A stretch of DNA of 64,000 nt from positions 792,730-856,729 of the forward strand of contig OZ255710.1 in the NCBI GenBank assembly GCA_965277105.1. Reading direction: 5' to 3'. This DNA is from Spirochaetota bacterium. Its GTDB lineage: Bacteria > Spirochaetota > UBA12135 > COTS27 > CAXSBA01. The translations under genes were made by a program, and so were the position numbers. Under the pieces are notes generated by a model. The model did not search any database. It had not been told where the DNA came from and was given only the letters and a program-made list of their open reading frames with translations. Below are positions 12,951 through 30,203 of the stretch, piece by piece (within the stretch, counting starts at the first letter, position 1; every line of letters begins with the position of its first letter).

Positions 12951-13070
12951 CTAAATTTCTTCTATAAATTTTCTAGATTAATAAAACACTCTGAAATGAA
13001 AATTAAAAATTAAATTGAATAAATTCATTGTATAGTTATTATTTAATTTTAATTTATGAGGAAAAAAGCT

Positions 13071-13976: not shown

Positions 13977-14203
13977 AAGCACCCAATAAATATTGTCCTT
14001 AGTCAACTTCTGCATAAAAAATGCTGAATGAGCACTAATCATTCAGCATTAATTACCCGGCTTTCAACTAGTCACATTACTTCGAGGAAGCTTGCTCTCG
14101 GGAAAATTGAAAAATCTTAGCTAAATTTATAATTATTTCACTAAACTAAAAAATCCCAATCGCATTACGTGGTGTAATTTTATCACCCAAAAAAATACAA
14201 TCT

Positions 14204-15880: not shown

Positions 15881-16063
15881 ACCAGTGAGCTTTTTCTCAC
15901 TAACTCTCTAAATCTCGGGGGGCCACAAAGCAGGACTTTTCCCCCCTCCCGGGTTTGCTTCTAAACTACTTTTCTAAAAACCAAAAAATCCAATAGACAA
16001 GTATTTTTTTTTGATAATTTTTTTAAGTTTATTTTTTCGTTGATTTTGCCTACATAAGTAATG

Positions 16064-16106
16064 GGTCTGCTAACTAATCTATCCCCAGTTAGCAGGCCTT
16101 TTTTTT
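16064..16106 (+). terminator. Strong orphan rho-independent terminator
   Basis: ggtctgctaact and agttagcaggcc form a 12-bp stem with one G.U pair and an 11-nt loop, followed by T8 (16099..16106). It lies 185 nt beyond the stop of gene 14204, which has its own hairpins. Confidence 0.7.
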
Positions 16107-16418
16107 ATCAAATAGCCGTTGGAGTTTTTGCCTCCAGCTCTTCATTTAGTGAATTCAATTATCAGCTACTCGAGGGGAAAAAAATCCTTATAATTTTATT
16201 TGCTTATTAAAGCTAATGAAGCTCAGCTACATTGCTTTGGAAATTATTTAGCGGTTAATGGGAATTAGTTTTTGGTGTTTGTCGTAAATATAAAGAAATG
16301 GATGCCGACGGTGGATATACCCCATGGGAAAAATACACCCTGGCATAGTTATGAGCCAAGATTATTTGATCAGGAAGAAAGAATTATTCTATCTAAAAAA
16401 AGCATAAAAATCTTATAA

Positions 16419-17273
16419 TTGTCAGCTTCACCTTCTCCCCAAAAAAAGCCTATACAATTAAACAAATCTTTTAAATTTAAAGATAAAAAACATGAAAGCA
16501 AAGATAATTACATCTGCGGTTATCTCATTTTATTCGATATTATTGATTCTACTAAAAGGAAAGAAAAATACAAAAAAGACGATGAATGGTTAGAACATCT
16601 AAATTTATTTTATTCAGAATTTTACCAATTCTCAAATCAACTAATTAAAAAAATTACAGAAGAAGTTAAAAAAATTACTTTTCTTGATGATAAAGCAGTT
16701 ATTAAAACCATTGGCGATATGGGTTTTTTGTTTTTGCCTTTTGAAAAACAAAAAACTCCTAATTATGACGAAGAAAAAAAGGAAGGGATCCCGAATATTT
16801 CAAAACTTATTCTAGAGAAAACAATGAATTTCTGTAATTACAAGTCAGGAATTCCTGAATTAAAACTCAAAACTATTATTACTTATTTATATCAAGTTTT
16901 TTTAATCAATTTAAATAAGGGAGAAAACAAATTTGATATCGTCGGTAAAGGGATAGATTTTTCTTTTCGACTAGAAGGTTTTGCCAATTCTTCTTGCATT
17001 ATTTTAAATAAATATCTTGTTGAATCTATAAAAAAGCTTGGAGAATGTGCTACTAATAAAACTAATGAAGATCTGAGTATTAATTTTTCTAATACACTAT
17101 ATGACATCGTCAAAGTTAGAAAAACAATTAGAGGCTGGGATGATGAAAAAGAAGAGTTTTATTTTCTTACCAATCCAGAAATGACTAAAGATACGTATGA
17201 AAAACGCGAGGACTTTTTAGATGAAAATTCTATTTACGCAGAGTTGTTTTTAAAACACGAAAAAAGACCCTAA
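16419..17273 (+). CDS. Stand-alone class III nucleotidyl cyclase-like protein (no sensor or effector domain)
   Basis: YLILFDIIDSTK matches the first metal-Asp motif (FxDIxGFT). IKTIGDMGFLF matches the second (IKTIGD). FDIVGKGIDFSFRLEGFA aligns with G..VN.AaRLE, with Asn replaced by Asp. The C-terminal VRKTIRGWDDEKEEFYFL resembles the terminal beta-hairpin. The only in-frame start is TTG at 16419, directly after a TATAAT. Confidence 0.6.
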   Translation: MSASPSPQKKPIQLNKSFKFKDKKHESKDNYICGYLILFDIIDSTKRKEKYKKDDEWLEHLNLFYSEFYQFSNQLIKKITEEVKKITFLDDKAVIKTIGDMGFLFLPFEKQKTPNYDEEKKEGIPNISKLILEKTMNFCNYKSGIPELKLKTIITYLYQVFLINLNKGENKFDIVGKGIDFSFRLEGFANSSCIILNKYLVESIKKLGECATNKTNEDLSINFSNTLYDIVKVRKTIRGWDDEKEEFYFLTNPEMTKDTYEKREDFLDENSIYAELFLKHEKRP

Positions 17274-17671
17274 CCCCCACTCCCCAACCTCACCCCTAAA
17301 TAAATCCCCCCAGCCAACGCCGCCACTCCCACCACTGGTATCCCAATCACCGCCACGTAATACCAAAATTCCCCCCGGTTTTTAAGGTAATTATTTTCCG
17401 CCTCGAAGTCGTCGATTAAAAGATTTTTCTCATTTACGGACAAGGCGATAATCTCCTGTTTTTCCGCCTCCAACTCATCCACCCGGCGAATTAAAAGCGG
17501 ATATAACTCTATTATCCGAATCATCCGCAAAACTTCGCTAGGCGAATTTAAATCAATCTTTTTATGATAAAACGGCTCGGGGTATTTTTGTAAGTCGTTA
17601 CCAAGTAATAACGTTGTTGCTAATAGTGACAATGTAATTACTCTCACTAATAATGATAGCTTCATTTTCAA
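17270..17671 (-). CDS. Bitopic membrane protein (N-terminal signal/anchor, coiled coil, C-terminal TM), last gene of the lysis block
   Basis: MKMKLSLLVRVITLSLLATTLLLG at the N-terminus and FWYYVAVIGIPVVGVAALAGGIYLGV at the C-terminus. No Cys is present. It overlaps the upstream gene by 74 nt in another frame. Confidence 0.4.
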   Translation of the reverse strand: MKMKLSLLVRVITLSLLATTLLLGNDLQKYPEPFYHKKIDLNSPSEVLRMIRIIELYPLLIRRVDELEAEKQEIIALSVNEKNLLIDDFEAENNYLKNRGEFWYYVAVIGIPVVGVAALAGGIYLGVRLGSGG

Positions 17672-17846
17672 ATTCTTTTTTAGTTTCTAATTGCTTATTT
17701 ATAATGATTTTTTCTTGCTCGAATATTTCTTTTTTCCGTTCGGCCAATTCGCTCGTTTTATCTCGACTAAAAAAAAGGTAGGTGCCACTTATCCCCAAAA
17801 TAGCACCCACCAAAAAGGCTATAATGATAATCTTATAGCCCCGCAC
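17598..17846 (-). CDS. N-terminally anchored coiled-coil protein (i-spanin-like architecture)
   Basis: 82 aa. TM helix IIIIAFLVGAILGISGTYLFF is followed by a charged helical segment. Its position is distal in the lysis cassette. Confidence 0.35.
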   Translation of the reverse strand: MRGYKIIIIAFLVGAILGISGTYLFFSRDKTSELAERKKEIFEQEKIIINKQLETKKEFENEAIIISESNYIVTISNNVITW

Positions 17847-18168
17847 GTTTTTCTCTCCTTAGAAAAAAATCATCGAGGGTTTTTAAAAAACTACCGTCGG
17901 CGACTGTCCTCGTCGTTACTCTTAAAAGCCAAATCCCACTCAAAGCAATTAAATTATATTTCTCTATATCTTTAATAAATCCAGTTACTCGATTATGCCG
18001 CCCCCCAGTCCAAACCCCGCCTTCGAACTCAATCGCTAACTTGTATTTTTCGACATAATAATCTATTCTAAATTTTCTATTATCTAAGAATTTATACTCT
18101 TTCGTGTAATCAATTTTTTTTTGTTTAAAATAGTTTTCTATAAGTAGTTTTGCTAAATCGGAGTTCAT
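17833..18168 (-). CDS. Small Vsr/DUF559-like PD-(D/E)xK-fold endonuclease-like protein
   Basis: FRIDYYVEKYKLAIEFEGGVWTGGRHNRVTGFIKDIEKYNLIALSGIWLLRV follows the D...(I/V)E.(D/E)G...H...D.(R/K)...L...G..(L)R pattern of DUF559/Vsr-type nucleases. Confidence 0.45.
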   Translation of the reverse strand: MNSDLAKLLIENYFKQKKIDYTKEYKFLDNRKFRIDYYVEKYKLAIEFEGGVWTGGRHNRVTGFIKDIEKYNLIALSGIWLLRVTTRTVADGSFLKTLDDFFLRREKRAGL

Positions 18169-18181
18169 TTTTTTACCGTTA

Positions 18182-18532
18182 TCAATTAATGTCTTTCGCT
18201 TCTAATTTTTTCACTCGCACTCCCTTTTTCTTAAAAAAAGAACTAAGGACTTTAATTAAATCGTCATCACTAATATTAAGGCTTATTCTTAAAACCGTTA
18301 TCCCTTCTTCAGCAAAAAGATTATCTTTTCTATAATTGCTTTTTTTATTTACCTCAATTTTCCCATTGATATTTTTCCCTATCATAATCTCAATAGCCGT
18401 TTTGTATTGATGAAGGTAAAAATCAGTTTTATACTTTACGCTACTAGTAAACAAATAATCAAAAACATAAGGTATGCTATTTTTGCTGAAATACTTTCTT
18501 ATTTTATTTTTTAATTTTCTAACTTTTATCAT
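18182..18532 (-). CDS. Second small DUF559-like protein (possibly degenerate active site)
   Basis: KTDFYLHQYKTAIEIMIG...YRKDNLFAEEGITVLRI has the same spacing as the neighbour. It lacks the (D/E)G after the IE, and its tail is basic. Confidence 0.35.
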   Translation of the reverse strand: MIKVRKLKNKIRKYFSKNSIPYVFDYLFTSSVKYKTDFYLHQYKTAIEIMIGKNINGKIEVNKKSNYRKDNLFAEEGITVLRISLNISDDDLIKVLSSFFKKKGVRVKKLEAKDIN

Positions 18533-18771
18533 TTTTTTTTATTTATAATGTTTTTTAAAAATCCCGTCTTCTCCACCGTGTCGGCTCCGATCCACGCCCC
18601 AATTAAAAGGCACAACGGGCTAATGATTATCTCATAAAACTCATTTAACGCCTTTGACTTATCGAACAAATCCAGCCCCACTAAAACAAAGTTATAAACC
18701 ATCCCGCCGACTAAAATACTCGTAACCATCAAAGCAACGCTAAACCTTTTCCAGCTTTTTTTATTTTCCAT
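18529..18771 (-). CDS. Holin-like two-TM protein
   Basis: 80 aa with two hydrophobic helices (FSVALMVTSILVGGMVYNFVLVGL; IIISPLCLLIGAWIG) and a basic C-terminus. It lies immediately downstream of the endolysin and its stop overlaps the next gene. Confidence 0.45.
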   Translation of the reverse strand: MENKKSWKRFSVALMVTSILVGGMVYNFVLVGLDLFDKSKALNEFYEIIISPLCLLIGAWIGADTVEKTGFLKNIINKKK

Positions 18772-18789
18772 TTTTTAAACTCCTTATTT

Positions 18790-19269
18790 TTAGACGTTCC
18801 AATTTTTGTATTTTGTCATTCCGTTTTCTCGATACGCCCTTAAAATCTCTTTTCGATTATTTCCCGAAGTAAAACTTACATGAACCCAGGCAGGATTTTT
18901 ATCATTTCCAAATTCCCAGATTAGTTGGTCGAAATCCAGCTCGTCTTTTATCGTGTTGAAAATATCCGCGTTGGTTAAAACCGATTTTTTATTATCCATA
19001 TCAATGTCGATAGCTTCGCCTTTACAGTGCTGACTTTTAGTGCTCCCGCCAATGGCCGCGTTAAGGACCGGACTACGATACCCGCTGCTAATGAAAATCG
19101 GCACTTCGCACAGTTTTCGTAACGGCTGAAAAAGATATTTTGCTAAATATGATAAATTAGCCAGTGCTTCCTTTGTAGGATAATTATCAATCCCTAATCG
19201 TAAGGCAGTAGTTGATTTTATAGCTTCCCCCAGGCTTAAATTTTCCGAGAGTTTCATCGCTTTCATCAT
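18790..19269 (-). CDS. Peptidase M15A-type cell-wall hydrolase (endolysin)
   Basis: SGYRSPVLNAAIGGSTKSQHCKGEAIDI ... NPAWVHVSF matches the H-x6-D...H zinc triad and surrounding motif of M15 (VanY / L-Ala-D-Glu peptidase-like) phage lysins. Confidence 0.8.
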   Translation of the reverse strand: MMKAMKLSENLSLGEAIKSTTALRLGIDNYPTKEALANLSYLAKYLFQPLRKLCEVPIFISSGYRSPVLNAAIGGSTKSQHCKGEAIDIDMDNKKSVLTNADIFNTIKDELDFDQLIWEFGNDKNPAWVHVSFTSGNNRKEILRAYRENGMTKYKNWNV

Positions 19270-19442
19270 CTAAACCACGCTCCTAAAAACTGAAGCACGC
19301 TCCCTTTTGCTATTAACTTTTCTCCTAAGGCCAAAAGCAAAATAGCAATTAAAATATTTATCTTGTGATTAATCTTTCTATTCAGCCTATGGTATTTTTT
19401 CATGGCGCTCATTTCACGGTTGGTTTTCAGATGAAAATTCAT
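19266..19442 (-). CDS. Small single-TM protein, paralog of 19482..19733 (not in supplied ORF track, 58 aa)
   Basis: Hand translation: MNFHLKTNREMSAMKKYHRLNRKINHKINILIAILLLALGEKLIAKGSVLQFLGAWFR. Its TGA overlaps the endolysin ATG (ATGA). The C-terminal 45 aa align with MVNKYDRLNNKLNILIVVLVLSLGENLGVLKFLGALFKL. Confidence 0.5.
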   Translation of the reverse strand: MNFHLKTNREMSAMKKYHRLNRKINHKINILIAILLLALGEKLIAKGSVLQFLGAWFR

Positions 19443-19481
19443 AGTAGATTTTTTTTTTCAACTTTAAAGGCCTGGTTATTT

Positions 19482-19733
19482 TCATAATTTAAACAACGCC
19501 CCTAAAAACTTCAACACCCCCAAGTTTTCCCCTAAAGACAAAACTAAAACCACGATTAAAATGTTGAGCTTGTTGTTGAGCCTATCGTACTTGTTAACCA
19601 TGGCTAATATCTTTCGCTCGTTTTCTTTTATCCTATCCATCGCCCCAGTGGAGCCGTTGCCGTAAAGGTCGTGCTTGATTGTCTGCACGTCTTCTTTGAT
19701 TTTGGCATTGGTTCGTTTGGTTGGATTAGTCAT
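19482..19733 (-). CDS. Small single-TM protein (holin/antiholin-like candidate)
   Basis: 83 aa. A hydrophilic N-terminal half is followed by the TM helix LNILIVVLVLSL. It lies between the tail fibre and the endolysin, and its paralog is immediately downstream. Confidence 0.45.
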   Translation of the reverse strand: MTNPTKRTNAKIKEDVQTIKHDLYGNGSTGAMDRIKENERKILAMVNKYDRLNNKLNILIVVLVLSLGENLGVLKFLGALFKL

Positions 19734-19736
19734 TTT

Positions 19737-20934
19737 TTAGCGGTATTTTATGAAAGCGCAGAGCTGGACGCTTTTCGGGCGGGTTTCGCTGGAGCCTTCG
19801 CTACTAGTATTTCTTGTTTCACCACTATTAAAATCAGTGTCGTCAAAATTCACAAAAAGTTGTTGTGCATATGGCCCTCTATTTTGTCTAAAAACTTTAA
19901 CTTCATGATTATGCTCTTCAAACGTATCTTTCTGATAATAAAGAATATTGAAATAACCCCTATTCGGATCCACTCCTTGCCCTTCGTCTAAGGCCCTAAA
20001 AAAAAGCCCTTGAAAGTTCGGCAGGCGGAATTTCTTTTGTCCGTTTACGGATTGAATTCTAAAATATCTATTATAGATGTAACCTGAATTATAACTACCA
20101 TTAAAAATACTATCTGTAATATCTTGACTGTGTCTATAAATCGCAGTACTGATAGCACCTCCCCCTGTCCCTAGCCCTGTTTCTACTATAATTTTATTAT
20201 CCGCATTATGTTGCGACAATATCCAATCATACAAATCTAAATAAGCAGAATTATCAACAGCGTCATAAACAGTTCGTCCGTCTAGTTTTAAATAATTAGG
20301 TGGTCGTAAAGTAGTTGGGAAATAGGCTATTTGCCCGATGTCCTCCTTGTTCCTCGTTTCTAAATCATTTATCCTTTGCTCTAAACGATTAATCAATTCG
20401 CTATTGTTGTCATCGACTACTTTTATCTGCTCTTCAACTCCCTGTATCGTGGTGTCGTTGATAGTTTTTATATTATTTTTAATGCTCTCTACTTGGTTAT
20501 TTATTCCTGGGATTTTCGTGGTGTTGATGGTGCTTATCTGGCTATTTATCCAATGGATTTTATTTTCATTAATGTCTTTTATGGCATCTTGGTTGCTGGT
20601 TATTTTTTGGTTAATTCCCGGGATTTTATTGTCAACTACTTTTATTTTATTTTCAATCTCCGGCACCTTGGTGTCGTTGAGATTTTTTAGGTTGTTTTTA
20701 ATCTCCGGGATTTTTTCATCAAAAATTTCATCCCTTTCGCTCTTAAAGTATTTGCTCCACTTTTGGACTTTCTCCATCATCCCGTTAAACTCCTTGGCGC
20801 TTAAGGCCTGCCCTTCTCTAAAGCCTTCTTTGCGGATAGCTTCACTGAGGTCGGTTTTTTTGTCGTCGGGGAGGTTGTCCGCCGAAAATGTCGACGGTGT
20901 CGCTCGGGGGTTTAATTTCGTTGTCGTTGGTCAT
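19737..20934 (-). pseudogene. Tail fibre paralog 2 (collar-domain C-terminus) with N-terminal frameshift
   Basis: The ORF-track product starts at internal MMEKVQKW (20780). Upstream, ATG 20934 encodes MTNDNEIKPPSDTVDIFG, then one extra C (cc at 20879..20880, against gttgtcgccgaaaat in fibre 1) shifts the frame. The shifted frame reads DNLPDDKKTDLSEAIRKEGFREGQALSAKEFNG, homologous to fibre 1. The C-terminus is GQIAYFPT...SSETRPKSVQLCAFIKYR. Confidence 0.65.
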
Positions 20935-21014
20935 TCATTATCTCCTTTTTTTTTACAATATTTTTCTTAATTTTTTTCCTTAATTTTTTTTTTATTTTTA
21001 TAATTCATCTCATT

Positions 21015-21971
21015 TTAGCGGTATCTGATGAAAGCACAAAGCTGGATGTTTTTCGGGCGGGTTTCGCTGGAGCCGTTATATTGGGAATAATGTCTATCGT
21101 TACTATCAGTAGGAAATCCTTGCTTTAAATTTGTCGCGATTAATGACTGATAATGAGTATCAGAAGCTATTGAATCTCCATCTATAGGCAACTCATGCCT
21201 ATGACTTTTAAACGTATCGCCTCGATACCATAAAATCTTTTCATTAGCTCCATCTGGGTTTACTCCTTGCCCTTCTTCGAGAACCCTAAGAAAAACTCCT
21301 TGAAAATTAGGCACCTTGAACTTTTTTTCACCATTTGCTATTTGAACTCTAAAATGTTTATTGTCTGTTGAGTTAGATGAAAAAGTGGAATGAGTAATAT
21401 CTGTCGCAAAATGTTTAAGAGCATTTGAAATACTTTGTCTGCCTGTCGATATTAATATCTTATTATTCGCGCTATGCTCGCTCATTATCCAGTTGAATAA
21501 ATCCAAATACTCGGGGTTAGCCACCGCATCATACACCGTCTGCCCGTCGAGTTTGAGATAATTAGCCGGCGTTTTAACTGTCGGGAAATAAGCAATCTGG
21601 CCGATGTCGCGTTTAATCTTTTGCTCTAAATCACGCATTCGCTCTTCTAAACTATTTTTGTTTTCATCGATTATTTCCTTGTAATCGTCGATGAGCGTCC
21701 TATTTTCATTGATTAACCTTTTGTTCTCATCGGTTACATTTTTGTGGTTGTCGATAAGTGCTTTATTGCTTTTTGCTGTATTTTCTATTCGCTGCTTTTC
21801 ACTTTCTAGCCACTTAACCCACTTTTGGGTTTTCTCCATCAGCCCGTTAAAGTCTTTGGCGGTTAAGGCCTGCCCTTCTCTAAAGCCTTCTTTGCGGATA
21901 GCTTCACTGAGGTCGGTTTTTTTGTCGCTAGGGAGGTTGTCGCCGAAAATGTCGTCGGGGGTTTTTGTCAT
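21015..21971 (-). CDS. Tail fibre protein with phage tail-collar-type C-terminal domain
   Basis: N-terminal attachment region, coiled coil, then IGQIAYFPTVKTPANYLKLDGQTVYDAVANPEYLDLFNWI and the terminal SSETRPKNIQLCAFIRYR, typical of collar-domain fibres. Confidence 0.7.
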   Translation of the reverse strand: MTKTPDDIFGDNLPSDKKTDLSEAIRKEGFREGQALTAKDFNGLMEKTQKWVKWLESEKQRIENTAKSNKALIDNHKNVTDENKRLINENRTLIDDYKEIIDENKNSLEERMRDLEQKIKRDIGQIAYFPTVKTPANYLKLDGQTVYDAVANPEYLDLFNWIMSEHSANNKILISTGRQSISNALKHFATDITHSTFSSNSTDNKHFRVQIANGEKKFKVPNFQGVFLRVLEEGQGVNPDGANEKILWYRGDTFKSHRHELPIDGDSIASDTHYQSLIATNLKQGFPTDSNDRHYSQYNGSSETRPKNIQLCAFIRYR

Positions 21972-21986
21972 TAGTTTATCCTTTGA

Positions 21987-22682
21987 TTAAAAATCTTTTT
22001 CATGCAGAGTGAAGCCTAGTTTTAAACCAAAACCAGGATTTCGACCAAATAAAAAAGTTTTTTCTAAACCATAGTCGATCCTCATCTTGTTTTTCCCTAA
22101 ATTAAAACTATAAAGTAACTCGTAATGTTCTTGTAAATAACTTATCTCATTTCTAGTTGCGGGTTCTCCATTTTTTTCAATCTCTGCTGTAGTTTCTAAA
22201 TCAAAAAAAACAAATAGCACCATATCGGAAAAAATAAAAAAATTAAACTTTTCGTTTAACTCAAGCACTTTACTAAGTTCAACAAAAGCATTATAGGTGA
22301 AGTCGTCATAAATTGATGAGATCTTGGCTAATAAAATTAACCGGTAAGAATTATCCTTACTTCGCTTTTTTTCGTCACTGTCGCTTGCTAGTAACATATG
22401 CGACGATATGCGAGGTATTTCTAAAAGCTCCCCAAAATAATCCAACCACTTCCCCTTAGCGGTGGTGATGTTATTGTAAAACTGTAAATTTTCAACTTCC
22501 CCGTTTGACTCGTTAGAGAAACTATCCAGTTGATTATGCGCATCCCTTCTTCCTTCACGAAGCTCATCTTTTATTACCTCACTCGACAAGTGCCGGGCTA
22601 TTTTCTCAAATACAGAAAGCCATATTTTCCCTTGGCCTTCTAGACCAACCAACTGATTAATATTCGTTAATTTTTTACTCAT
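21987..22682 (-). CDS. Baseplate/tail protein (P2 gpI / Mu gp48-like position)
   Basis: 231 aa, directly after and overlapping the baseplate J-like gene. The call rests on position and size only. Confidence 0.4.
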   Translation of the reverse strand: MSKKLTNINQLVGLEGQGKIWLSVFEKIARHLSSEVIKDELREGRRDAHNQLDSFSNESNGEVENLQFYNNITTAKGKWLDYFGELLEIPRISSHMLLASDSDEKKRSKDNSYRLILLAKISSIYDDFTYNAFVELSKVLELNEKFNFFIFSDMVLFVFFDLETTAEIEKNGEPATRNEISYLQEHYELLYSFNLGKNKMRIDYGLEKTFLFGRNPGFGLKLGFTLHEKDF

Positions 22683-23997
22683 TTGATTCTTCTTCTTCTG
22701 CTGCTGCTGCTTGTTCTGCTTCTGTTTCTGCTTCTGCTTGTTCTTTTTGCTTAACTTTAATTAATTTTTCATTATAATAAAGCTCAATATTGTCCATATC
22801 AATGATGGCGATTTTATTAAAAAGCAACTGCACGGAAAAGTCGTCACCCCAATCGGTAATATCAGATGCTTTCTTAATGAAAATATTAAACAAGCTAAAG
22901 CCTTTTAAAAAAGTTAGTCGTTCTTGGAGGTATTTGGAAATCTCGAAGTTACTAATAAGTTCCCCGGTTCTTTTATCGAGTAAAAAGCGGTTTATCTCGG
23001 TGTAAATATTTTCGAGGAGATTTTTCTTATTCCTCTCGCTAATTTCTCTCGCGTCAATCTTAAACTTTAACGGCTCATTAGTTGGTTTGACCACGTAAAA
23101 AGATATGGGATTACCGTTAAATTTACCACCAATTTCAATGGCATTATCCGGCTTGTACCACTTGATATTAGGAGATGTGTTGTGCAAAATGGCCTCCCAA
23201 ATTTCCTTCTTCACTCCCTCTTCTATAGAAGATTTCTCTTCCACGTTGTCATCGATAATCACCGCCGTTTGATTAAACGGAACGCCAGTGGTGCTTTCTT
23301 CATTAATGCTTTCATCGCTATAGTTGAAAAATACTTTAGCGTACTTGATATTAGCAATTTTATTCAGCTCTTGCTCGAGTCTCGTTACGCTTAAAACCGA
23401 CGGGTAAGTTTTTTTAACCCGCTCCCTTAGCTCTTCATCGCTTTCTGCGTCTCTACCAAACAAAGCCGACAAAGGGTTAGTCACACTTGCTATTGCGCCA
23501 CTAGGGTCTTTATCGATTTCCGTCAAAGTGTTGGCAAAAACATTTTTATTCGCTCCTGGTTTTTCGCTTCGAAAACTCACCTTCTTCACTCCTGAATTAT
23601 CAGTAATGACAAAATCTTCATCGCTAATAAAAAAGTTTTCTCCGTCACTTACTCTCACAGGATTGTTCGTCGTAAAATCATAAGCGGCATTTTTATCTTT
23701 AAAGGTTAGTTCCATCGTCACCTTACTAGGTTTAGCTTTTAACCGGTCAATTGACTTTAACAACGCTAGGTTGTTTAACGAATTATCCCTTGCTTCATTG
23801 ACGTTAAACGAGGCCCGGACTTTATTCATTTGCAGATAAATATTATAAGTCCAATCGGCAATGAAGTTAGCGATAATGTGGTCATTGGAGTAAGGGATTA
23901 TATCTATCTTATTGTCGCGAGCTAGCTCAATTATTTCTTCTAATAATTCTTCTTTGGTGGGCAGTTCAAACCCTTTTTCCGTAAATCTATTTTTCAT
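22675..23997 (-). CDS. Baseplate J-like wedge protein
   Basis: 440 aa. The N-terminus FTEKGFELPTKEELLEEII resembles J-family starts. It follows a gp25/W-like gene with an overlapping stop/start. The acidic tail EQAEAETEAEQAAAAEEEE is unusual. Confidence 0.55.
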   Translation of the reverse strand: MKNRFTEKGFELPTKEELLEEIIELARDNKIDIIPYSNDHIIANFIADWTYNIYLQMNKVRASFNVNEARDNSLNNLALLKSIDRLKAKPSKVTMELTFKDKNAAYDFTTNNPVRVSDGENFFISDEDFVITDNSGVKKVSFRSEKPGANKNVFANTLTEIDKDPSGAIASVTNPLSALFGRDAESDEELRERVKKTYPSVLSVTRLEQELNKIANIKYAKVFFNYSDESINEESTTGVPFNQTAVIIDDNVEEKSSIEEGVKKEIWEAILHNTSPNIKWYKPDNAIEIGGKFNGNPISFYVVKPTNEPLKFKIDAREISERNKKNLLENIYTEINRFLLDKRTGELISNFEISKYLQERLTFLKGFSLFNIFIKKASDITDWGDDFSVQLLFNKIAIIDMDNIELYYNEKLIKVKQKEQAEAETEAEQAAAAEEEESNE

Positions 23998-24289
23998 TAG
24001 TTATCGTCTCCACTTTTAGGGGAATGCTGTTGATTTTTAAGTCAATGATTAATTTATTTTCTTGGTTCTTAATATCAATAATTTCCGCTTCCACGATCTC
24101 CTCATCGTTTAGTAAAAAATCCTTAATATCCTTTTCAATATAAAACTCGTTAAGCGGGTTATGAAAATATTTGAACCAATCAAAACCTAAATTATCATTA
24201 CTTAAACAATCCCCTTTTTTAATTTTTAAGCGGTTAATCACCCGCTCTTGTAGTTGTTCTTTTTCATTTAATAAATAACTGTTAAACAT
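23987..24289 (-). CDS. gpW/gp25-like baseplate wedge protein
   Basis: 100 aa. The size, its position before the J-like gene, and the pattern RLKIKKGDCLSNDNLGFDW...IKDFLLNDEEI fit the GPW_gp25 pattern. Confidence 0.5.
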   Translation of the reverse strand: MFNSYLLNEKEQLQERVINRLKIKKGDCLSNDNLGFDWFKYFHNPLNEFYIEKDIKDFLLNDEEIVEAEIIDIKNQENKLIIDLKINSIPLKVETITNEK

Positions 24290-24355
24290 TTTTTTTTGCT
24301 ACTTTTTTTTTATTGTTCGATTTTTTATTGTTCGATTATTAATCATTTGATTTTT

Positions 24356-24661
24356 TTAACCGGTAATTTTTATATCGATAGTCCCCTGAACAGGTCCACT
24401 AGGAGCGGTTAACACGTAGATAGCGGTTATATCCATTTTCTTTACTTCGGCAATAATCGCATCGGCCATTTTTTGGATATACACATCATTAGTAATGGGA
24501 TCATCCGCAGGTTCTTTTTTTTCTTCTTCTTCTTCCCGCTTTTCTCCTTTTTCTTCGACGTCTTTCTTGGCTTTTTCTTCTGATTTTCCTCGGTCTTCCT
24601 CAGCAGCCTTTTTAAAAGCAGTTTTAATGGCTCCAGCTAAGGTACTAGCATTCATTGGCAT
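24356..24661 (-). CDS. Hypothetical acidic tail/baseplate protein
   Basis: 101 aa with a Glu/Lys-rich centre and a conserved-looking C-terminal beta segment (TAPSGPVQGTIDIKITG). No function is recognisable. Confidence 0.3.
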   Translation of the reverse strand: MPMNASTLAGAIKTAFKKAAEEDRGKSEEKAKKDVEEKGEKREEEEEKKEPADDPITNDVYIQKMADAIIAEVKKMDITAIYVLTAPSGPVQGTIDIKITG

Positions 24662-24684
24662 AATTTTTTTCTCCTTTATTATTT

Positions 24685-25200
24685 TTATTTTTTATCTAAA
24701 AGTTGTTGTAATTTTTGTTTTAATCCTATGACGTTAGTAATATTATGGGGCATGATATTTTGCGGGCCCATTTGGGTTAAAACTTGATTGTCTTTCATCG
24801 CATCTAAAATCCCTTCCAATATAGCAAGCAAACTTTGCCCACCAGCGCTTATGGCGATTTTTCCATTTTCTTTTAGATGAATACTGACATCTTCTTTCAT
24901 GAGCTTAATCCCTTTTTCATAAGCCATATCAATTTTCCCCATAATGAAACTGTTATGATAATTCTCTTTAAAGAAAAACTCCTGGTCAGTTAGGCTGTCT
25001 TCTAAGGGATAACCGGCTAGGGCCACCACCACGATGTCATCTTTTTCGTAGTTGAAAACGATAGAATTATCCGCTCCTGCGGCCATCAAAGCCCTTACTC
25101 CTTTGACGATGCCCAACTTGCCCTCGCTATCTTTCAAGAGCGGCTGCACGTCATAGGTGCCGTCTTCGTTATTTGCGGTAATTTGCCCTTTATAAAACAT
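24685..25200 (-). CDS. Baseplate spike/assembly protein V-like (OB-fold)
   Basis: The likely start is MFYKGQITANNEDGTYDVQPLL (ATG 25200), not 25239. The G.V...D....V.V......G......V and DDIVVVALAG pattern resembles gpV/gp45 N-domains. Confidence 0.45.
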   Translation of the reverse strand: MFYKGQITANNEDGTYDVQPLLKDSEGKLGIVKGVRALMAAGADNSIVFNYEKDDIVVVALAGYPLEDSLTDQEFFFKENYHNSFIMGKIDMAYEKGIKLMKEDVSIHLKENGKIAISAGGQSLLAILEGILDAMKDNQVLTQMGPQNIMPHNITNVIGLKQKLQQLLDKK

Positions 25201-25912
25201 ACAACAACTGGTAGCTAATTTGCCCCTTATAAAATACACTAACGATTTTATGGATAATCCCCGAGTACGGCCCCTCTAACTTTTGCATTAACGAAAAGTC
25301 TTTGATGCCTTGACTGGCAATCATCCGATAATTATTACTCATTTTTTTCATTTCTTCTCCTCGATCAAAAAAAGCCAATTGCTCTCCTTTTTCTTCCACT
25401 CCCTCATAGGATAGGAACTCGTAAATGCTACTGACTTTGTTCGTGGTCGTGTGGGTATTCGTAACCTCGACCCGATTTTTATTCCAAACCCAGATCATCT
25501 TCAATGGCCAAAAAACCTCATTTAATAGTTTTTTAATTTGAATTTTGCACGGGATGTGATAATTCACCCGCGCTTTATCTTCTCCATAACTCACCACTTC
25601 GACCTCGCTAAATACCTGAGAAAAATTACTATCCTTTTTAATAAAAAAGTTTTTCACGTTATCATATAGCGGATAATCCAAATAACCCCAGATATAAAAC
25701 TTTTTATTTTCAATATAAAAACGGTTGATTTTAAAAGTGAATTTATTAATAGTAACGATGCTACGTTCCTTAAAAATCTGGTAACTATTTTTGGGATTTA
25801 AAATCTCCACTTTGGCGATATTCCTCCCCAGACTTTCAATTATCTCAAAATTAAAATCCGCCTCACTCAGGTCGTGGGTGCGATTATTATTATTAATCGT
25901 AAAGAGCATCAC
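25190..25912 (-). CDS. Hypothetical baseplate hub-region protein
   Basis: 240 aa. Coding is supported by operon context and start/stop overlaps. No motif is recognised. Confidence 0.3.
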   Translation of the reverse strand: MMLFTINNNNRTHDLSEADFNFEIIESLGRNIAKVEILNPKNSYQIFKERSIVTINKFTFKINRFYIENKKFYIWGYLDYPLYDNVKNFFIKKDSNFSQVFSEVEVVSYGEDKARVNYHIPCKIQIKKLLNEVFWPLKMIWVWNKNRVEVTNTHTTTNKVSSIYEFLSYEGVEEKGEQLAFFDRGEEMKKMSNNYRMIASQGIKDFSLMQKLEGPYSGIIHKIVSVFYKGQISYQLLYVL

Positions 25913-26142
25913 TAGTTTCGCCTATCTCCAAACTCCAGCATCCCATCACTGGTAACGCCCTTTAAATAAAGCAAACCAAAAAATACCGATACCCCCTTGC
26001 GGACAAAATCCCCTTGAACAAAAACGCCGTTGCGGTAGAGGAGGAAGTAGTAGTCGTTATGGATTTCTCTAATCTCCAAGTCGTAGTATTCATTCCCGTT
26101 TTTTACTGGGTAACGGGTTCCCGGTTTAAGTTTTACTGTCAT
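25912..26142 (-). CDS. Hypothetical small tail protein
   Basis: 76 aa. Its stop abuts the next start (25912). Position matches gpU/X-type small proteins, but no motif is recognised. Confidence 0.3.
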   Translation of the reverse strand: MTVKLKPGTRYPVKNGNEYYDLEIREIHNDYYFLLYRNGVFVQGDFVRKGVSVFFGLLYLKGVTSDGMLEFGDRRN

Positions 26143-26169
26143 GCCTGATGTTTTCCTTAGTTCAATAAT

Positions 26170-26733
26170 TTAGCCAATTAGATTACTTTGTTTAATGAAG
26201 TTATCTAAAGCTAGTAAATTAACCTTAGACTTTTTCCCTTTGGCGTTAGTTTTTCTCTCTACTTCGTTAAAGCTCACATTAACGAGGAGGTTATTGATCC
26301 CATCCACGCCCCTTACTTTGCGCTCACCCAAACTAGTGATAATGAGATTCTCATTTTTTTCTTCATAACCAAATAAAGTCAACTTAGTTTTCTCGCTTTT
26401 CCATTTGTCTAAGCGCTCTTTTCTGCTAAGGGCCGTCAGTGGCGAGTCGTACAAGTTTTTATTAATAAGCGAATCGTAATAGTTTTTCAACGATAAAGTT
26501 TCACTAATCAGCCAACCACTTAAGTTGATTTTTTTACGCTTATCAATAATGAGGTTATTCTCGTTGTCCTCTTTCACCTCGCCAATGTTCGACACGTCAT
26601 TAGCCGAAAGCGAGTTGTAACTTTCAATGACGTTAAAAAACACACTCTCATAGCGGCCCCCTAACTTTTCTTCATTGACTAAGAAAACTAAAAAATTCTT
26701 GGACTTTAAATTCCTTCTAATGTTGGTGATCAT
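26170..26733 (-). CDS. Hypothetical tail protein downstream of tape-measure candidate
   Basis: 187 aa. Its ATG directly follows the TAA of the upstream reading frame (taaatg at 26731..26736). Confidence 0.3.
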   Translation of the reverse strand: MITNIRRNLKSKNFLVFLVNEEKLGGRYESVFFNVIESYNSLSANDVSNIGEVKEDNENNLIIDKRKKINLSGWLISETLSLKNYYDSLINKNLYDSPLTALSRKERLDKWKSEKTKLTLFGYEEKNENLIITSLGERKVRGVDGINNLLVNVSFNEVERKTNAKGKKSKVNLLALDNFIKQSNLIG

Positions 26734-27599
26734 TTACTTAGCCCCCTCACCAACTCCGCCATTGACTTCATTTTCGTTGCGGTTAAACGCCCCTTTCAGC
26801 CAACCAGCGAGGCCTCCTTCTCTATTCATTAGGTTAAGAATATCGCTAAGCTCAATCTTAGGAAATTTCTCTAAAAGCTCGTTTTTAAAGTTCGCTATTT
26901 CTTTCACGATAGCATCTTCAACGGTTTTGACAATAGGACTTAAAATCCCCTTCCCTTCAAAGCCGGAGCCACAATCTCTTGTTCTCCCTTGGTTATATTT
27001 TGAACGTTTTTCATAAATCCTCCGACCGAATCCTTACCGCCTTGGAAGAAGCTTACAAGATTATCAATAAAGCCTTTCGACCCTTTAGTTGCTAAACTAG
27101 GCAGAAAACTTTTTAATGATGGTAACTTAAGGTTTAATAAATCCTTAATCCCATTACCCAATTCTCCTTTAGCGTTCGTGAATATTTCTTTTAAGAAAGA
27201 AAACGGTTGAGAGTTTTTGCTAAAATAATTTTTTATCCCACTTAAAATACCATTGCCTTCACCAAAAAGTTTTTTAGGTAAATCAGTAAAACTCTTAAAC
27301 TTCTCTTTAAACGCCTCCATTAGCTTCTGCCAATCTTCGCCTACTCTTTCTTTCACTTCTTCTTTTTTTTCGTTGAAGTCATTTAAGAAGTTCTGGCTTT
27401 TTTCTTGGATTTCTTGCCAGATATTTTTCCCTAATTTTTCTTTACTTAAATCTTTTAGAAAAGCTAAGTTCCCTTTTAAATTTTCTTGGTTTATTGCAGA
27501 AAGTTGTTGATTGATTTCTTTTAACCAACCACTCTGCTCACCCGGCAACTTTAAGTTCATCGAAAAATCTTTTATTGCTAAATCTGCCATTGTTGTCAT
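26734..27599 (-). CDS. Tape-measure candidate, split into a 219-aa ORF plus a start-less ~90-codon ORF in the -1 frame
   Basis: Gly/Lys/Phe-rich low-complexity sequence in the position after the chaperone pair. ORF 26940..27599 stops at GRGF*. A second frame, open from ~27010 to TAA 26734..26736, reads ...GFEGKGILSPIVKTVEDAIVKEIANFKNELL...GAK and has no ATG giving 60 aa or more. Confidence 0.4.
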
Positions 27600-27823
27600 G
27601 ATAAATCCTCTAATTTTTGAGCCATCTTTCCCAACTCTTTAGGGGATCGCGAAAGCATAAAAGCCATGGAAGTTTGCAGCATCCGCTCTTGCTCTTTTTT
27701 TTTATAGGCCTTATAAAAATCCAAAAGCTCGGTTACGGTGATTTTATTAAAATCTTCCAATTTCACGACCCCACTAACGAGAAGTTCTTGCTTAATCTTT
27801 TTTATTGTTTGATAATGTTGCAA
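27596..27823 (-). CDS. Tail assembly chaperone, downstream/overlapping frame
   Basis: 75 aa with a TTG start, overlapping the upstream ORF by 32 nt in the +1 frame. It sits between tube and tape measure, the canonical G/GT (E/E') position. Confidence 0.45.
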   Translation of the reverse strand: MQHYQTIKKIKQELLVSGVVKLEDFNKITVTELLDFYKAYKKKEQERMLQTSMAFMLSRSPKELGKMAQKLEDLS

Positions 27824-28067
27824 TTTTCTCTTTTATCTCTTTATGGGTTCCAGTGATAATGTGCTTTTTAAGTTTTGCATTTTCTACTGCTACCTTATTC
27901 GTCGTAATAAAAATCCATAAAAAAGTTAATAAGAGCTCAATGTTTTCTTTACCAAAAACTTGGTTGCGATCTAACGCTTTGGTATCCCCCTCATCGTCTT
28001 CTTGCCAAACAAACCTAGTGGTTAAATCAACCACCGCATAGTGCATCAGCTTGCTGTAGTCTTGCAC
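27792..28067 (-). CDS. Tail assembly chaperone, upstream frame
   Basis: 91 aa, between tube and tape measure. It ends ...SNNKKD* across an A6 run (T6 on the plus strand, 27798..27803). Confidence 0.45.
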   Translation of the reverse strand: MQDYSKLMHYAVVDLTTRFVWQEDDEGDTKALDRNQVFGKENIELLLTFLWIFITTNKVAVENAKLKKHIITGTHKEIKEKIATLSNNKKD

Positions 28068-28240
28068 TTCTCCTCTACTATCTAAAATACCATACGCCGG
28101 CGAAATTATCTTTTCATACCTTTCGCAATCTAACTCTTTAACCCTTAAAATACAGCTGGCATTGCTCCCATTTTTCTTATAAAAAACCTACATGCTGGTC
28201 TTGTATCATTATGTAATCCTTTATTACTTGCTAACTTTGC

Positions 28241-28639
28241 CTAAGTTCCCGTTATCGTGTCGGCCTTAATAGTTACCGCCACTTGGGCACTCTCTCCTCC
28301 CGTTCTATCTAAACGCACTACTCGAGCTCCCGAACAAACCGTAGGAACTTTAATTCCTCCTCGTTTGAAACTAAGGACAAAAGTAGTGTCAGTTTCTTTT
28401 AACCCAAATAAAATATCAAAAGCTTTCGTGCCATCGAAAATGTTAAAATTCACTGTCCCGCTTTTATCGGCCATCGTCACATGCTGGGCTCCCCCGCCTG
28501 CTCCAATAACGATATTACTACCGTCAGAGGTCATAGTGATTGCCACATCTTGGTCGCCAAAATCTTTTCGATCGATTAAAAACCCATTGATGATTAAACT
28601 ATCTAAATGTTTTTTATAAATTGAAATTGAATTAGCCAT
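28241..28639 (-). CDS. Tail tube protein (candidate)
   Basis: 132 aa, beta-rich, immediately after the sheath-sized gene. The call is from size and order. Confidence 0.5.
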   Translation of the reverse strand: MANSISIYKKHLDSLIINGFLIDRKDFGDQDVAITMTSDGSNIVIGAGGGAQHVTMADKSGTVNFNIFDGTKAFDILFGLKETDTTFVLSFKRGGIKVPTVCSGARVVRLDRTGGESAQVAVTIKADTITGT

Positions 28640-28650
28640 GGTTTACTCCT

Positions 28651-29613: not shown

Positions 29614-29635
29614 TGTTTCTCCTTTAATTTTTTTT

Positions 29636-30079
29636 TCATTTTTTTTCTTTGATAACAAGCTCGTTGTTATAATTGATGTTTTCTATTTTTTCTTTACTAA
29701 ATTGATTTTTTCTAAAATATTTTATTCCTAAGGTCAAAGTTCTAAAAGGGAGGAAGTCGTCCTTATACCCCATAGTGCCTAGGTCTTTTACTTCGACCAC
29801 GCAATCAGAGTAATTAGTCTCATCGAAATAATTTTTTATTTTAAAAACTAATTCATCTAATTCTTCATGGGCACTAATATCTTTGTCTCGGCCAATAACT
29901 TCCAAGCTCACCCTTTCATAGATGCGATATTCGGCGGTGCTATACCAATCATCCATTCCCACTAATCGCCAAATAAGATTAATGGCTTCACCTTTGATGA
30001 CCTCTCCGGTAACGTGATAGGCAATGTCATCGTTAACTAAGTAATCTTTTAAACGTTGATTAATTGCAATTAATTTCAT
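29636..30079 (-). CDS. Hypothetical neck/tail-completion protein
   Basis: 147 aa, immediately upstream of the sheath. Position only. Confidence 0.3.
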   Translation of the reverse strand: MKLIAINQRLKDYLVNDDIAYHVTGEVIKGEAINLIWRLVGMDDWYSTAEYRIYERVSLEVIGRDKDISAHEELDELVFKIKNYFDETNYSDCVVEVKDLGTMGYKDDFLPFRTLTLGIKYFRKNQFSKEKIENINYNNELVIKEKK

Positions 30080-30203
30080 TTTTTTTTTTAACTTTATTTT
30101 TTAATTTTTAAGTACTTACTTTCATTTGATTAAAATCGATGAGCTAGCGCTCTCGCCATCTTCGATATTCGCTCAAACTTTTCTTTTTGTAATTTTTCTA
30201 TTT

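What the first reader, a model, noticed from the sequence alone, without database searches (positions are those of the whole stretch)
16419..17273. Orphan minimal class III cyclase-like gene wedged between lipoprotein array and phage lysis genes
The 284-aa product has both metal-binding Asp motifs of class III nucleotidyl cyclases (LILFDIIDSTK; IKTIGDMGF). It also has the Arg-containing transition-state motif, but the Asn position reads Asp (GIDFSFRLEG instead of VN.AaRLE).

It has no TM, HAMP, GAF, CHASE or other sensor domain. This contrasts with the canonical cyclase at 4041..5528. Minimal stand-alone cyclases at prophage borders are what pyrimidine-cyclase (Pycsar-type) defence systems look like.

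No cNMP-binding effector gene follows, however. The gene converges on, and overlaps by 4 nt, a small bitopic membrane protein of the phage block. The only in-frame start is TTG, placed directly after a TATAAT box, which raises the possibility of a leaderless transcript or a misplaced start. The 540 bp upstream is non-coding.

It may be a remnant, a phage moron, or a cyclase with a non-canonical partner or substrate.
Basis: partly seen in the sequence, partly recalled or inferred. Interest (0 to 1): 0.6.

Follow-up and report, generated by a model that had tools for sequence, protein, structure and literature searches.

The report
Orphan cyclase-fold toxin, decayed Panacea antitoxin
The gene is real and encodes a stripped-down adenylate-cyclase-like enzyme, but it is not a Pycsar defence cyclase: it is the toxin half of a Panacea-type toxin-antitoxin pair carried by a prophage, and its antitoxin gene has decayed in the "non-coding" DNA just upstream.

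Summary
The 284-aa ORF at 16419..17273 and its three motifs are real. A high-confidence model (pLDDT 86.5) matches only class III adenylate/guanylate cyclases. The family profile reaches CyaB (3r5g, E 1e-6) and the window's own canonical cyclase (hhalign 87%). No Pfam, PADLOC or PHROG model reaches its threshold.

The protein belongs to a rare, metagenome-only family of 78 representatives. Both metal Asp, the adenine-type Lys/Asp pair and the Arg are (near-)invariant. Asp replaces the canonical Asn in all 42 aligned members.

The conserved partner is not a cNMP-binding effector. It is a Panacea (PF13274) antitoxin gene, adjacent and co-directional in 16 of 19 informative loci. In the window, the "non-coding" upstream DNA (16135..16418) is that PanA gene as a pseudogene. 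It is 5'-truncated, carries 2-, 1- and 5-nt deletions, and has a ~178-nt deletion that removes the domain core.

The host prophage is itself a ~14-kb tail and lysis remnant. The one precedent is the experimentally validated "nucleotide cyclase" PanT of Burkholderia prophage phi52237. It is not detectably related in sequence, although its PanA is 30% identical to this clade's PanA.

Verdict: an orphan PanT-type cyclase-fold toxin, a new variant of a known kind. Its chemistry is unknown, and its intact ORF suggests continued selection.

The parts
16419..17273 (+). Intact 284-aa ORF: stand-alone, diverged class III nucleotidyl-cyclase-fold protein, PanT-type toxin candidate. Key residues: D40 and D100 (metal), K96/D173 (adenine-type pair), D180 (canonical Asn position), R184 (transition-state Arg), R238-G239-W240 (position of the canonical K-G motif). 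GC 26.9% against 35-36% for the surroundings.
16135..16418 (+). Pseudogene of the cognate Panacea-domain antitoxin (PanA). Homologous blocks lie in three different frames: about 16137-16185, 16168-16239, 16240-16262, 16259-16300 and 16311-16409. The start is lost. There are 2-nt, 1-nt and 5-nt deletions and a ~178-nt internal deletion that removes the W-YGPV core. In-frame stops are present. The terminal stop TAA is at 16416-16418.
   Evidence: three-frame translations; tblastn with the intact PanA of L001/L002; DNA alignment with L001, L002, L023
16272..16418 (+). Residual 48-aa ORF, the C-terminal piece of PanA (…PHGKNTPWHSYEPRLFDQEERIILSKKSIKIL). It is in the same frame as the cyclase ORF and separated from its TTG only by the TAA stop.
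16054..16108 (+). Inverted repeat (core CTGCTAACT / AGTTAGCAG) followed by GCC-T8. It looks like a terminator and lies just upstream of the antitoxin remnant. It would insulate the cassette from the lipoprotein genes.
   Evidence: (I1) and direct reading. Not listed by the terminator scan, because the loop is longer than 8 nt.
17270..31273 (-). Context: remnant of a Mu/P2-like myovirus prophage. It contains small membrane proteins, two phrog_503 endonuclease-like genes, an M15 endolysin (18790-19269), a tail fibre (19737-20780), baseplate J (22675-23997), a sheath fragment and a portal fragment. No terminase, capsid or integrase was seen. Host genes (ABC transporter) resume at about 32317.

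Best explanation
Identity. The ORF is the toxin gene (PanT) of a Panacea-type (PanAT) type II toxin-antitoxin module. The module was carried as a moron beside the lysis cassette of a myovirus prophage.

Protein. It is a stand-alone, strongly diverged class III nucleotidyl cyclase. It has both metal-binding Asp (D40, D100), the adenine-type Lys/Asp pair (K96, D173) and the transition-state Arg (R184). An Asp (D180), invariant across the family, stands where canonical cyclases have Asn.

Inferred mechanism. The protein dimerises as class III cyclases do. It uses two divalent metals to attack ATP and makes a cyclic or otherwise altered nucleotide that arrests growth. In intact modules the adjacent PanA protein binds it and keeps it silent until a trigger such as phage infection.

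State in this window. The module is orphaned. The deletion that removed the left half of the prophage also cut off the 5' end of panA, and panA then decayed. The toxin ORF is still intact and shows no excess of substitutions. It is therefore probably still under selection. I infer that it is tolerated because expression is poor: TTG start, no recognisable promoter or Shine-Dalgarno sequence, and a terminator-like hairpin upstream. Alternatively it is controlled in trans.

What is shown and what is inferred. Shown: the fold, the catalytic-residue pattern, the conserved pairing with Panacea genes, the antitoxin pseudogene and the prophage-remnant context. Inferred: toxicity, substrate, product, neutralisation by binding and expression state.
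For: Fold and sequence relation:
- The model built with 42 sequences has pLDDT 86.5 and pTM 0.85. Its top 50 PDB matches are all class III AC/GC domains (prob 1.0, E about 1e-7, TM on target 0.6-0.73).
- The family profile hits CyaB 3r5g at E 1.3e-6. It matches the window's own canonical cyclase domain at 87% probability, E 4e-6. In both, K-x-x-G-D aligns with KFxGD, and G-x-G-I-D-F-x-F-R-L-E aligns with G-x-x-V-N-x-A-x-R-x-E.
- D40, K96, D100, D180 and R184 are invariant and D173 is 40/42 in 42 members.

Partner gene:
- A PF13274 gene lies immediately upstream, with overlap, in L001, L002 and L023.
- It lies immediately downstream, from a 4-nt overlap to a 55-nt gap, in L004, 5, 6, 9, 10, 11, 12, 14, 15, 16, 17, 19 and 21.
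- Members sit on viral contigs next to a Mu-F head gene (L010, L011), in a prophage (L002), and in defence or restriction neighbourhoods (L001, L012).

Pseudogene.

Precedent:
- Kurata et al. 2022 (PMC8832971) validated nine PanA-neutralised TA pairs. One is a cyclase-like PanT from Burkholderia prophage phi52237 that is toxic, is neutralised by PanA and forms a complex with it.
- The PanA of the window's clade is 30% identical (E 4e-18) to that phi52237 PanA.

ORF integrity:
- The ORF has no more deviations at conserved columns than its clade mates (6 against 7-9).
- It has zero frame disruptions in 855 nt. The roughly 550-nt antitoxin gene has at least 4 frameshifting indels.
Against: - No experiment shows that any member of this family is toxic or is a cyclase.
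- The family has no detectable sequence relation to the one validated cyclase-like PanT (hhalign probability 0.3%). Toxicity is therefore argued only from the Panacea partnership.
- An intact toxin beside a long-dead antitoxin is awkward for a classical TA reading. It needs either silencing or another control.
- Three distant members (L007, L008, L018) lack Panacea. They sit beside STAS / HATPase-like / SpoIIE partner-switching genes. The fold is therefore also used in non-TA settings.
- The invariant Asn-to-Asp change means the reaction need not be cyclisation.
- The context of the paralogue P0002, on the same 1.69-Mb contig, could not be retrieved.
Confidence: 0.7

Rival explanations
1. Dead relic. 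The cyclase-like ORF is as non-functional as its antitoxin. It was silenced first, by loss of the operon promoter, ATG-to-TTG or an unnoticed missense change. It simply has not yet acquired a frameshift.
For: - The antitoxin is a pseudogene and the prophage is a remnant.
- The start is TTG where L002 has ATG.
- No promoter is predicted and there is no obvious Shine-Dalgarno sequence.
- Only one public run holds the sequence and there are no RNA data.
- In the usual order of TA decay, the toxin is inactivated first.
Against: - The ORF has zero frame-breaking events in 855 nt, against at least 4 in the neighbouring ~550-nt gene. At that rate about 6-8 events would be expected, giving a Poisson P(0) well below 0.05 (my estimate).
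- All invariant and nearly invariant family residues are retained.
- There is no excess of deviations relative to clade mates.
Confidence: 0.3
2. Pycsar-type (pyrimidine cyclase) anti-phage system with a missing or non-canonical effector.
For: It is a minimal stand-alone cyclase fold on a mobile element. The family occurs in defence-rich neighbourhoods (L001, L012).
Against: - No PADLOC model matches, PycC included, at E<=10.
- No cNMP-binding, TIR or TM effector is adjacent in the window or in any of about 20 homologous loci. The conserved neighbour is a Panacea gene.
- The base-contacting positions are the Lys/Asp of adenylate cyclases, invariant or nearly so. The equivalence to Rv1625c K296/D365 rests on my own knowledge of class III cyclases.
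Confidence: 0.04
3. An ordinary signalling adenylate cyclase. The Panacea-domain neighbour is a regulatory or sensor subunit rather than an antitoxin, so the orphan copy is just a constitutive small cyclase.
For: - The full adenylate-cyclase catalytic set is present apart from Asn-to-Asp.
- A distant subfamily sits beside partner-switching regulators (STAS, SpoIIE).
- One IMG record names a member 'class 3 adenylate cyclase'.
- Ernits et al. 2023 (PMC10440598) argue that Panacea may act as a sensor.
Against: - The distribution is very rare and patchy: 78 representatives among 1.84 billion, from metagenomes and MAGs only.
- Members are carried on phages and prophages.
- The gene pairs are tightly overlapped in TA style.
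- GC is low compared with the host.
- Kurata et al. validated nine PanA-neutralised TA pairs; no non-antitoxin role was found in the passages read.
Confidence: 0.08

Closest known systems
PanT(Bur. phage)-PanA of Burkholderia prophage phi52237 (YP_293707.1 / YP_863932.1; Kurata et al. 2022, PMC8832971)
   Same: - A two-gene module on a P2/Mu-like prophage.
- A ~300-aa stand-alone protein that profile methods relate to adenylate/guanylate cyclases, paired with a stand-alone Panacea antitoxin.
- PanA lies upstream of PanT, as in the window's clade.
- The two PanA proteins are 30% identical (E 4e-18).
   Different: - The toxins show no detectable sequence relation (BLAST and hhalign).
- The phi52237 family lacks the Arg and the K-x-x-G-D motif (its invariant motifs are F-x-D-x-L-G-F, S-D and G-P-A). 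It reaches PDB cyclases only at E about 1.
- The window's family keeps the whole adenylate-cyclase residue set except Asn-to-Asp.
- Most of the window's family uses a different PanA subtype placed downstream.
- In the window the PanA is a pseudogene.
Canonical class III adenylate/guanylate cyclase catalytic domains (PF00211; for example P. aeruginosa CyaB 3r5g, and the window's own MASE10-HAMP-cyclase at 4041..5528)
   Same: Same fold. Same order and register of the metal-Asp, K-x-x-G-D, D-x-x-G and x-x-R-x-E motifs.
   Different: - Below the Pfam gathering threshold.
- No sensor or membrane domain.
- Asn replaced by an invariant Asp.
- Family-specific invariant S44-T45, K48 and W57, and a ~50-residue C-terminal helical extension.
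- Mobile-element, TA-like genomic setting.
Pycsar (PycC cyclase plus cNMP-activated effector)
   Same: A small cyclase-fold enzyme associated with phages and defence regions.
   Different: No PADLOC match, no effector gene, purine-type specificity residues, and a Panacea antitoxin as the partner.

Membership tests
Class III nucleotidyl cyclase (catalytic domain) | Class III cyclase catalytic fold | tested here: met
   Foldseek against the PDB: all top 50 hits are class III AC/GC domains, prob 1.0, for both models. The second model has pLDDT 86.5.
Class III nucleotidyl cyclase (catalytic domain) | Two metal-binding Asp in the conserved motifs | tested here: met
   D40 and D100 are invariant in 42 members. 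D100 aligns with the GD Asp of CyaB and of the window's canonical cyclase.
Class III nucleotidyl cyclase (catalytic domain) | Transition-state Asn...Arg pair (VN.A.R) | tested here: not met
   The Arg (R184) is present and invariant. The Asn position is Asp (D180) in 42 of 42 members.
Class III nucleotidyl cyclase (catalytic domain) | Match to Pfam PF00211 above the gathering score | tested here: not met
   No hit for the window protein. Only 3 of 42 members give sub-threshold hits, best E 0.014.
Class III nucleotidyl cyclase (catalytic domain) | NTP-cyclising activity and dimeric active site | not testable with these tools
   Needs a purified-protein assay. No multimer prediction was available.
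PanAT (Panacea-type type II toxin-antitoxin) | Adjacent co-directional gene encoding a Panacea (PF13274) protein | tested here: inconclusive
   At family level the feature is met in 16 of 19 informative loci. In the window only a pseudogene remains, and no other Panacea gene lies in the 64 kb.
PanAT (Panacea-type type II toxin-antitoxin) | Toxicity of the partner protein, neutralisation by PanA and complex formation | not testable with these tools
   Shown only for other PanT families, including the phi52237 cyclase-like one (PMC8832971).
phi52237-type cyclase-like PanT family (cluster T47 of Kurata et al.) | Sequence homology to YP_293707.1 | tested here: not met
   BLASTP gives nothing significant. 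hhalign of the family profiles A2 and A4 gives probability 0.3%.
Pycsar | PycC-type cyclase recognised by defence-system models | tested here: not met
   PADLOC-DB: 0 families at E<=10.
Pycsar | Adjacent effector with a cyclic-nucleotide-binding domain | tested here: not met
   In the window the downstream gene is a convergent phage membrane protein with no family match. In homologous loci the neighbour is a Panacea gene.

The most novel reading that the evidence does not exclude
A second lineage of cyclase-fold toxins, unrelated in sequence to the first, has been recruited by Panacea antitoxins. It keeps a complete adenylate-cyclase active site with an invariant Asn-to-Asp switch. It therefore makes a nucleotide product other than ordinary 3',5'-cAMP, or uses ATP in a new way, as its growth-arrest or abortive-infection signal. 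In this genome the enzyme has outlived its antitoxin under purifying selection. That would make it a toxin domesticated into a host or prophage function that no longer needs PanA.
Probability: 0.2. Interest if true: 0.75.

Novelty: new variant of a known kind. Interest (0 to 1): 0.5.

Why it matters
What the one validated cyclase-like PanT toxin does is unresolved. Kurata et al. 2022 saw inhibition of transcription, then translation, RelA-dependent ppGpp accumulation and no ATP depletion, but found no product.

The family uncovered here is a much more canonical cyclase. All catalytic residues can be read off by alignment to solved structures, and one invariant substitution sits at the ribose-orienting position. 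That makes it a more tractable entry point for asking what nucleotide chemistry cyclase-fold TA toxins use.

It also gives a natural example of partner swapping. The same toxin family is paired with two Panacea subtypes that BLAST does not connect, in opposite gene orders. One of those subtypes is shared with the phi52237 system.

For annotation, it shows that an 'orphan minimal cyclase next to phage genes' should be checked for Panacea partners or their remnants before being called Pycsar.

Tried and rejected
- Single-sequence searches found nothing useful: Pfam, PADLOC, PHROGs, NCBIfam and PDB. The NCBIfam MesI hit (E 5e-5, 23 bits against a cut-off of 300) and the CPDase hit (E 0.04) are low-complexity noise.\n- tblastn against 50,697 phage genomes gave no real hit.\n- BFVD fold search returned giant-virus cyclase domains and one Caudovirales 'guanylate cyclase domain' protein. 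It did not return phi52237 gp8.\n- I tried to link the family to the phi52237 PanT by BLAST, profile-sequence and profile-profile comparison. All were negative.\n- I tried to reach the locus of the paralogue P0002. It is not on record and not in the window. No PanA of the upstream subtype is recorded on that contig. The leaderless-TTG idea is rejected, because leaderless translation normally needs AUG/GUG (general knowledge) and the TATAAT is the remnant's stop region.\n- Direct repeats flanking the cassette: none.\n- A search of viral contigs for the 'empty-site' junction found nothing.\n- RNA evidence: only one public run holds the sequence, kept as contigs.\n- The downstream membrane gene as partner is rejected, because it is not conserved next to the homologues.

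Full report
**1. Observation**

The ORF at 16419..17273 (+) exists, starts with TTG and encodes 284 aa. Its translation contains LILFDIIDSTK, IKTIGDMGF and GIDFSFRLEG. No other ATG, GTG or TTG lies in frame before the conserved core. The hexamer TATAAT (16414-16419) overlaps the first base of the TTG.

The ORF converges on, and overlaps by 4 nt, the 133-aa ORF 17270..17671 (-). The gene at 4041..5528 is a canonical MASE10-HAMP-Guanylate_cyc cyclase.

The window protein on its own matches nothing significant in Pfam, PADLOC, PHROGs, NCBIfam or PDB sequences.

**2. Is it a cyclase fold?**

Yes.
- Only three close homologues exist among 5.8 billion proteins, at 46-48% identity.
- A profile search of 1.84 billion cluster representatives found 78 family members, mostly 230-330 aa.
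- The 42-member alignment has these invariant columns: D40, S44, T45, K48, W57, K96, G99, D100, D180 and R184.
- Its profile hits P. aeruginosa CyaB (3r5g) at E 1.3e-6.
- By hhalign it matches the window's own canonical cyclase domain at 87% probability, E 4e-6.
- In both alignments K-x-x-G-D pairs with KF(I/V)GD, G-x-G-I-D-F-x-F-R-L-E pairs with G-x-x-V-N-x-A-S-R-(L/I)-E, and K-G-W pairs with the K-G motif.
- AlphaFold2 with four sequences gave pLDDT 69. With 42 sequences it gave pLDDT 86.5 and pTM 0.85.
- For both models the top 50 Foldseek hits in the PDB are all class III adenylate/guanylate cyclase domains, with probability 1.0, E about 1e-7 and TM on target 0.6-0.76.

From my own knowledge of class III cyclases (Rv1625c K296/D365/N372/R376; mammalian AC2 K938/D1018/N1025/R1029):
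- K96, four residues before the second metal Asp, and D173, seven residues before D180, occupy the adenine-specifying Lys/Asp positions.
- D180 occupies the ribose-orienting Asn position.
- R184 occupies the transition-state Arg position.

The Asn-to-Asp change is a family hallmark, present in 42 of 42 members, and not a lesion of this copy.

**3. What is it part of?**

The homologues answer this.
- In L001 and L002 the gene is preceded by, and overlaps, a 181-183-aa PF13274 (SocA/Panacea) gene.
- A fourth clade member, on short contigs L023-25, has the same arrangement.
- In the more distant members a Panacea gene lies immediately downstream on the same strand, from a 4-nt overlap to a 55-nt gap. 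These are L004, L005, L006, L009, L010, L011, L012, L014, L015, L016, L017 and L019, plus a fragment in L021.
- That makes 16 of 19 loci with enough flanking DNA.
- The exceptions are L007, L008 and L018. They form a short 231-aa subfamily beside STAS, HATPase-like and SpoIIE genes.

The settings are those of mobile or defence DNA:
- IMG/VR viral contigs, after a Mu-F head gene (L010, L011);
- a Mu/P2-like prophage (L002);
- a methylase / DUF2326 / M78-DUF4411 island (L001);
- next to an Mrr nuclease (L012).

**4. The 'non-coding' 540 bp**

Three-frame translation, tblastn with the intact PanA proteins and a DNA alignment agree. Positions 16135..16418 are the same PanA gene, dead.
- ALHLVNSIISY lies in one frame.
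- NPYNFICLLKLMKLSYIAL lies in a second frame (79% identical to L002).
- GNYLAV lies back in the first frame.
- A ~178-nt deletion then removes the W-YGPV-SIWHE core.
- W-LV-VC-KYK lies in a third frame.
- After a 5-nt deletion comes PHGKNTPWHSYEPRLFDQEERIILSKKSIKIL, ending in the stop at 16416-16418.
- The start codon and first codons are missing.

The following TTG aligns with the internal ATG (Met10) of the L002 toxin. That ATG is the likelier true start in L002.

A hairpin plus T8 lies at about 16067-16108, just upstream. No sigma-70-like promoter is predicted for the ORF, and promoter-like sites are at chance frequency.

**5. Context**

To the right, 17270 to about 31300 (-) is a prophage remnant. 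It holds an M15 endolysin, a tail fibre, baseplate J, a sheath fragment and a portal fragment. No terminase, capsid or integrase was seen. Host genes (ABC transporter and others) follow.

In L002 the same kind of prophage continues on the far side of the PanAT pair, with terminase GpA, SLT and other genes. The window's left phage arm has therefore been deleted. I infer that the deletion end-point lies at the 5' end of panA.

The ORF's GC content is 26.9%, against 35-36% around it.

**6. Comparison with what is known**

Kurata et al. 2022 (PMC8832971) named Panacea/PanA and validated nine PanA-neutralised TA pairs. One is a 'nucleotide cyclase' toxin from Burkholderia prophage phi52237, with HHpred 97% to AC/GC.
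- It is toxic in E. coli, is neutralised by PanA and forms a complex with it.
- It inhibits transcription more than translation.
- It induces RelA-dependent ppGpp without an ATP drop.
- No product has been identified.

I fetched that phage as L022: PanA at 8355-8828 lies upstream of PanT at 7408-8352. I then built its family alignment, A4, with 27 sequences.
- The two toxin families are not detectably related.
- A4 reaches PDB cyclases only at E about 1.
- A4 lacks the Arg and the K-x-x-G-D motif.
- The PanA of the window's clade is 30% identical (E 4e-18) to the phi52237 PanA.
- That PanA shows no BLAST similarity to the downstream-type PanA used by the rest of the window's toxin family.
- The downstream-type PanA is only marginally similar to the phi52237 PanA.

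So this is the same kind of system with a different toxin lineage, and with evidence of partner swapping. In Kurata's supplementary table 'cyclase' appears only for the phi52237-type cluster T47, although that file was truncated in storage. A literature search found no other paper on cyclase-like PanT. Ten family members that I looked up are unnamed or 'hypothetical' metagenome proteins, except one IMG label, 'class 3 adenylate cyclase'.

**7. State of the gene here**

The antitoxin carries at least four frame-breaking indels in about 550 nt. The 855-nt toxin ORF carries none. It keeps every invariant and nearly invariant residue. It deviates from the consensus no more than its intact-module relatives, with 6 deviations against 7-9 and 22 singleton changes against 14-20.

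At the antitoxin's indel density, about 6-8 events would be expected in the toxin. This is my own estimate, and it is crude because indels cluster. It argues for continued selection on the ORF.

How the host tolerates the gene is unknown. The options are:
- weak expression (TTG, no Shine-Dalgarno sequence, no promoter, upstream hairpin);
- control in trans;
- attenuation.

A paralogue, P0002 (47% identical), lies on the same 1.69-Mb contig. Its neighbourhood could not be retrieved.

**8. Sequencing-run evidence**

Only one public run contains the locus. Its contigs reproduce 16105-17299 without differences, which supports the pseudogene lesions as real sequence.

A 4.3-kb contig at lower depth (14 against 37) joins 16134 directly to 17274. 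It therefore lacks exactly the panA remnant plus the toxin ORF. Only 30 + 37 nt of it match the window, so it comes from a related but different molecule. Depth over the prophage is about 57, against about 36 over the left flank. Both points remain unexplained.

**9. Verdict**

The Pycsar interpretation is not supported. The 'remnant / moron / non-canonical partner' alternatives are close to the mark.

The best explanation, at confidence 0.7, is an orphaned PanT-type toxin of class III cyclase fold from a decayed PanAT module on a prophage remnant.

Fold, residues, gene pairing and pseudogene are shown. Toxicity, ATP as substrate, the product and PanA neutralisation are inferred.

It is a new variant of a known kind and moderately interesting (0.5). 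It offers a cleaner model for the unsolved chemistry of cyclase-fold TA toxins.

Noticed in passing
window 16134 / 17274 (run X1): A 4339-nt contig from the same sequencing run (depth 14 against 36-37) joins 16134 directly to 17274. It skips exactly the antitoxin remnant plus the cyclase-like ORF (1139 nt). Only 30 + 37 nt of it fit the window, so it is a related but different molecule. No direct repeats flank the cassette.
   Followed up: partly
window 17340-22000 against 15071-17299 (run X1): Assembler depth is about 57 over the prophage remnant and about 36 over the left flank and the cassette. Many variant contigs and joints occur in 12000-22000. This suggests extra copies or related prophages and strains in the sample.
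   Followed up: no
L007 6007-6702, L008 5998-6693, L018 359-1054: A short (231-aa) Panacea-less branch of the same cyclase-like family occurs in Treponemataceae / Spirochaetota MAGs and an activated-sludge contig. It keeps D...K..GD...D..G.GIDF.FRLE. It sits beside STAS, HATPase-like (weak) and SpoIIE/PP2C genes, that is, a partner-switching module rather than a TA pair.
   Followed up: partly
L002 9493-10041, L012 5031-5537, L022 8355-8828: One toxin family is served by two Panacea subtypes that BLAST does not connect. The upstream-type PanA is 30% identical to the PanA of Burkholderia prophage phi52237, whose toxin belongs to a different cyclase-like family. This is an apparent case of partner swapping.
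   Followed up: partly
window 17833-18168 and 18182-18532 (-): Two tandem paralogous small genes match phrog_503, with weaker hits to HNH / homing-endonuclease PHROGs. They are inserted in the lysis cassette between the spanin-like membrane genes and the holin-like gene and M15 endolysin. They are absent at the equivalent place in L002.
   Followed up: no
window 14204-15880 (+), about 14990-15080: A 558-aa lipoprotein-like protein carries five tandem DDEHSH repeats and a further His-rich stretch (HTDHSHDEDGHYH). It is one of an array of paralogous lipoprotein-signal genes (13056-13976 and others) with no Pfam match.
   Followed up: no
window 6744-6821, 7915-7992, 10657-10734, 12389-12406, 13578-13625 (- strand frames): A repeated ~78-nt segment (reverse-frame translation …YFIYKLTGL(A/T)TCWSGH) recurs five times across the lipoprotein-gene array. 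It turned up as spurious tblastn hits and is probably a conserved block of the paralogues.
   Followed up: no
L001 11868-20906: The intact PanA-PanT pair of L001 lies in a defence-island-like stretch with two N6_N4 methyltransferases, DUF488, DUF2326, a 730-aa unknown protein, Peptidase_M78 and DUF4411.
   Followed up: no
window 16272-16421: The 48-aa C-terminal antitoxin remnant ORF is in the same frame as the cyclase ORF. It ends in a TAA that is directly followed by the TTG start. This geometry would allow termination-reinitiation coupling, or a fused product on stop read-through.
   Followed up: no
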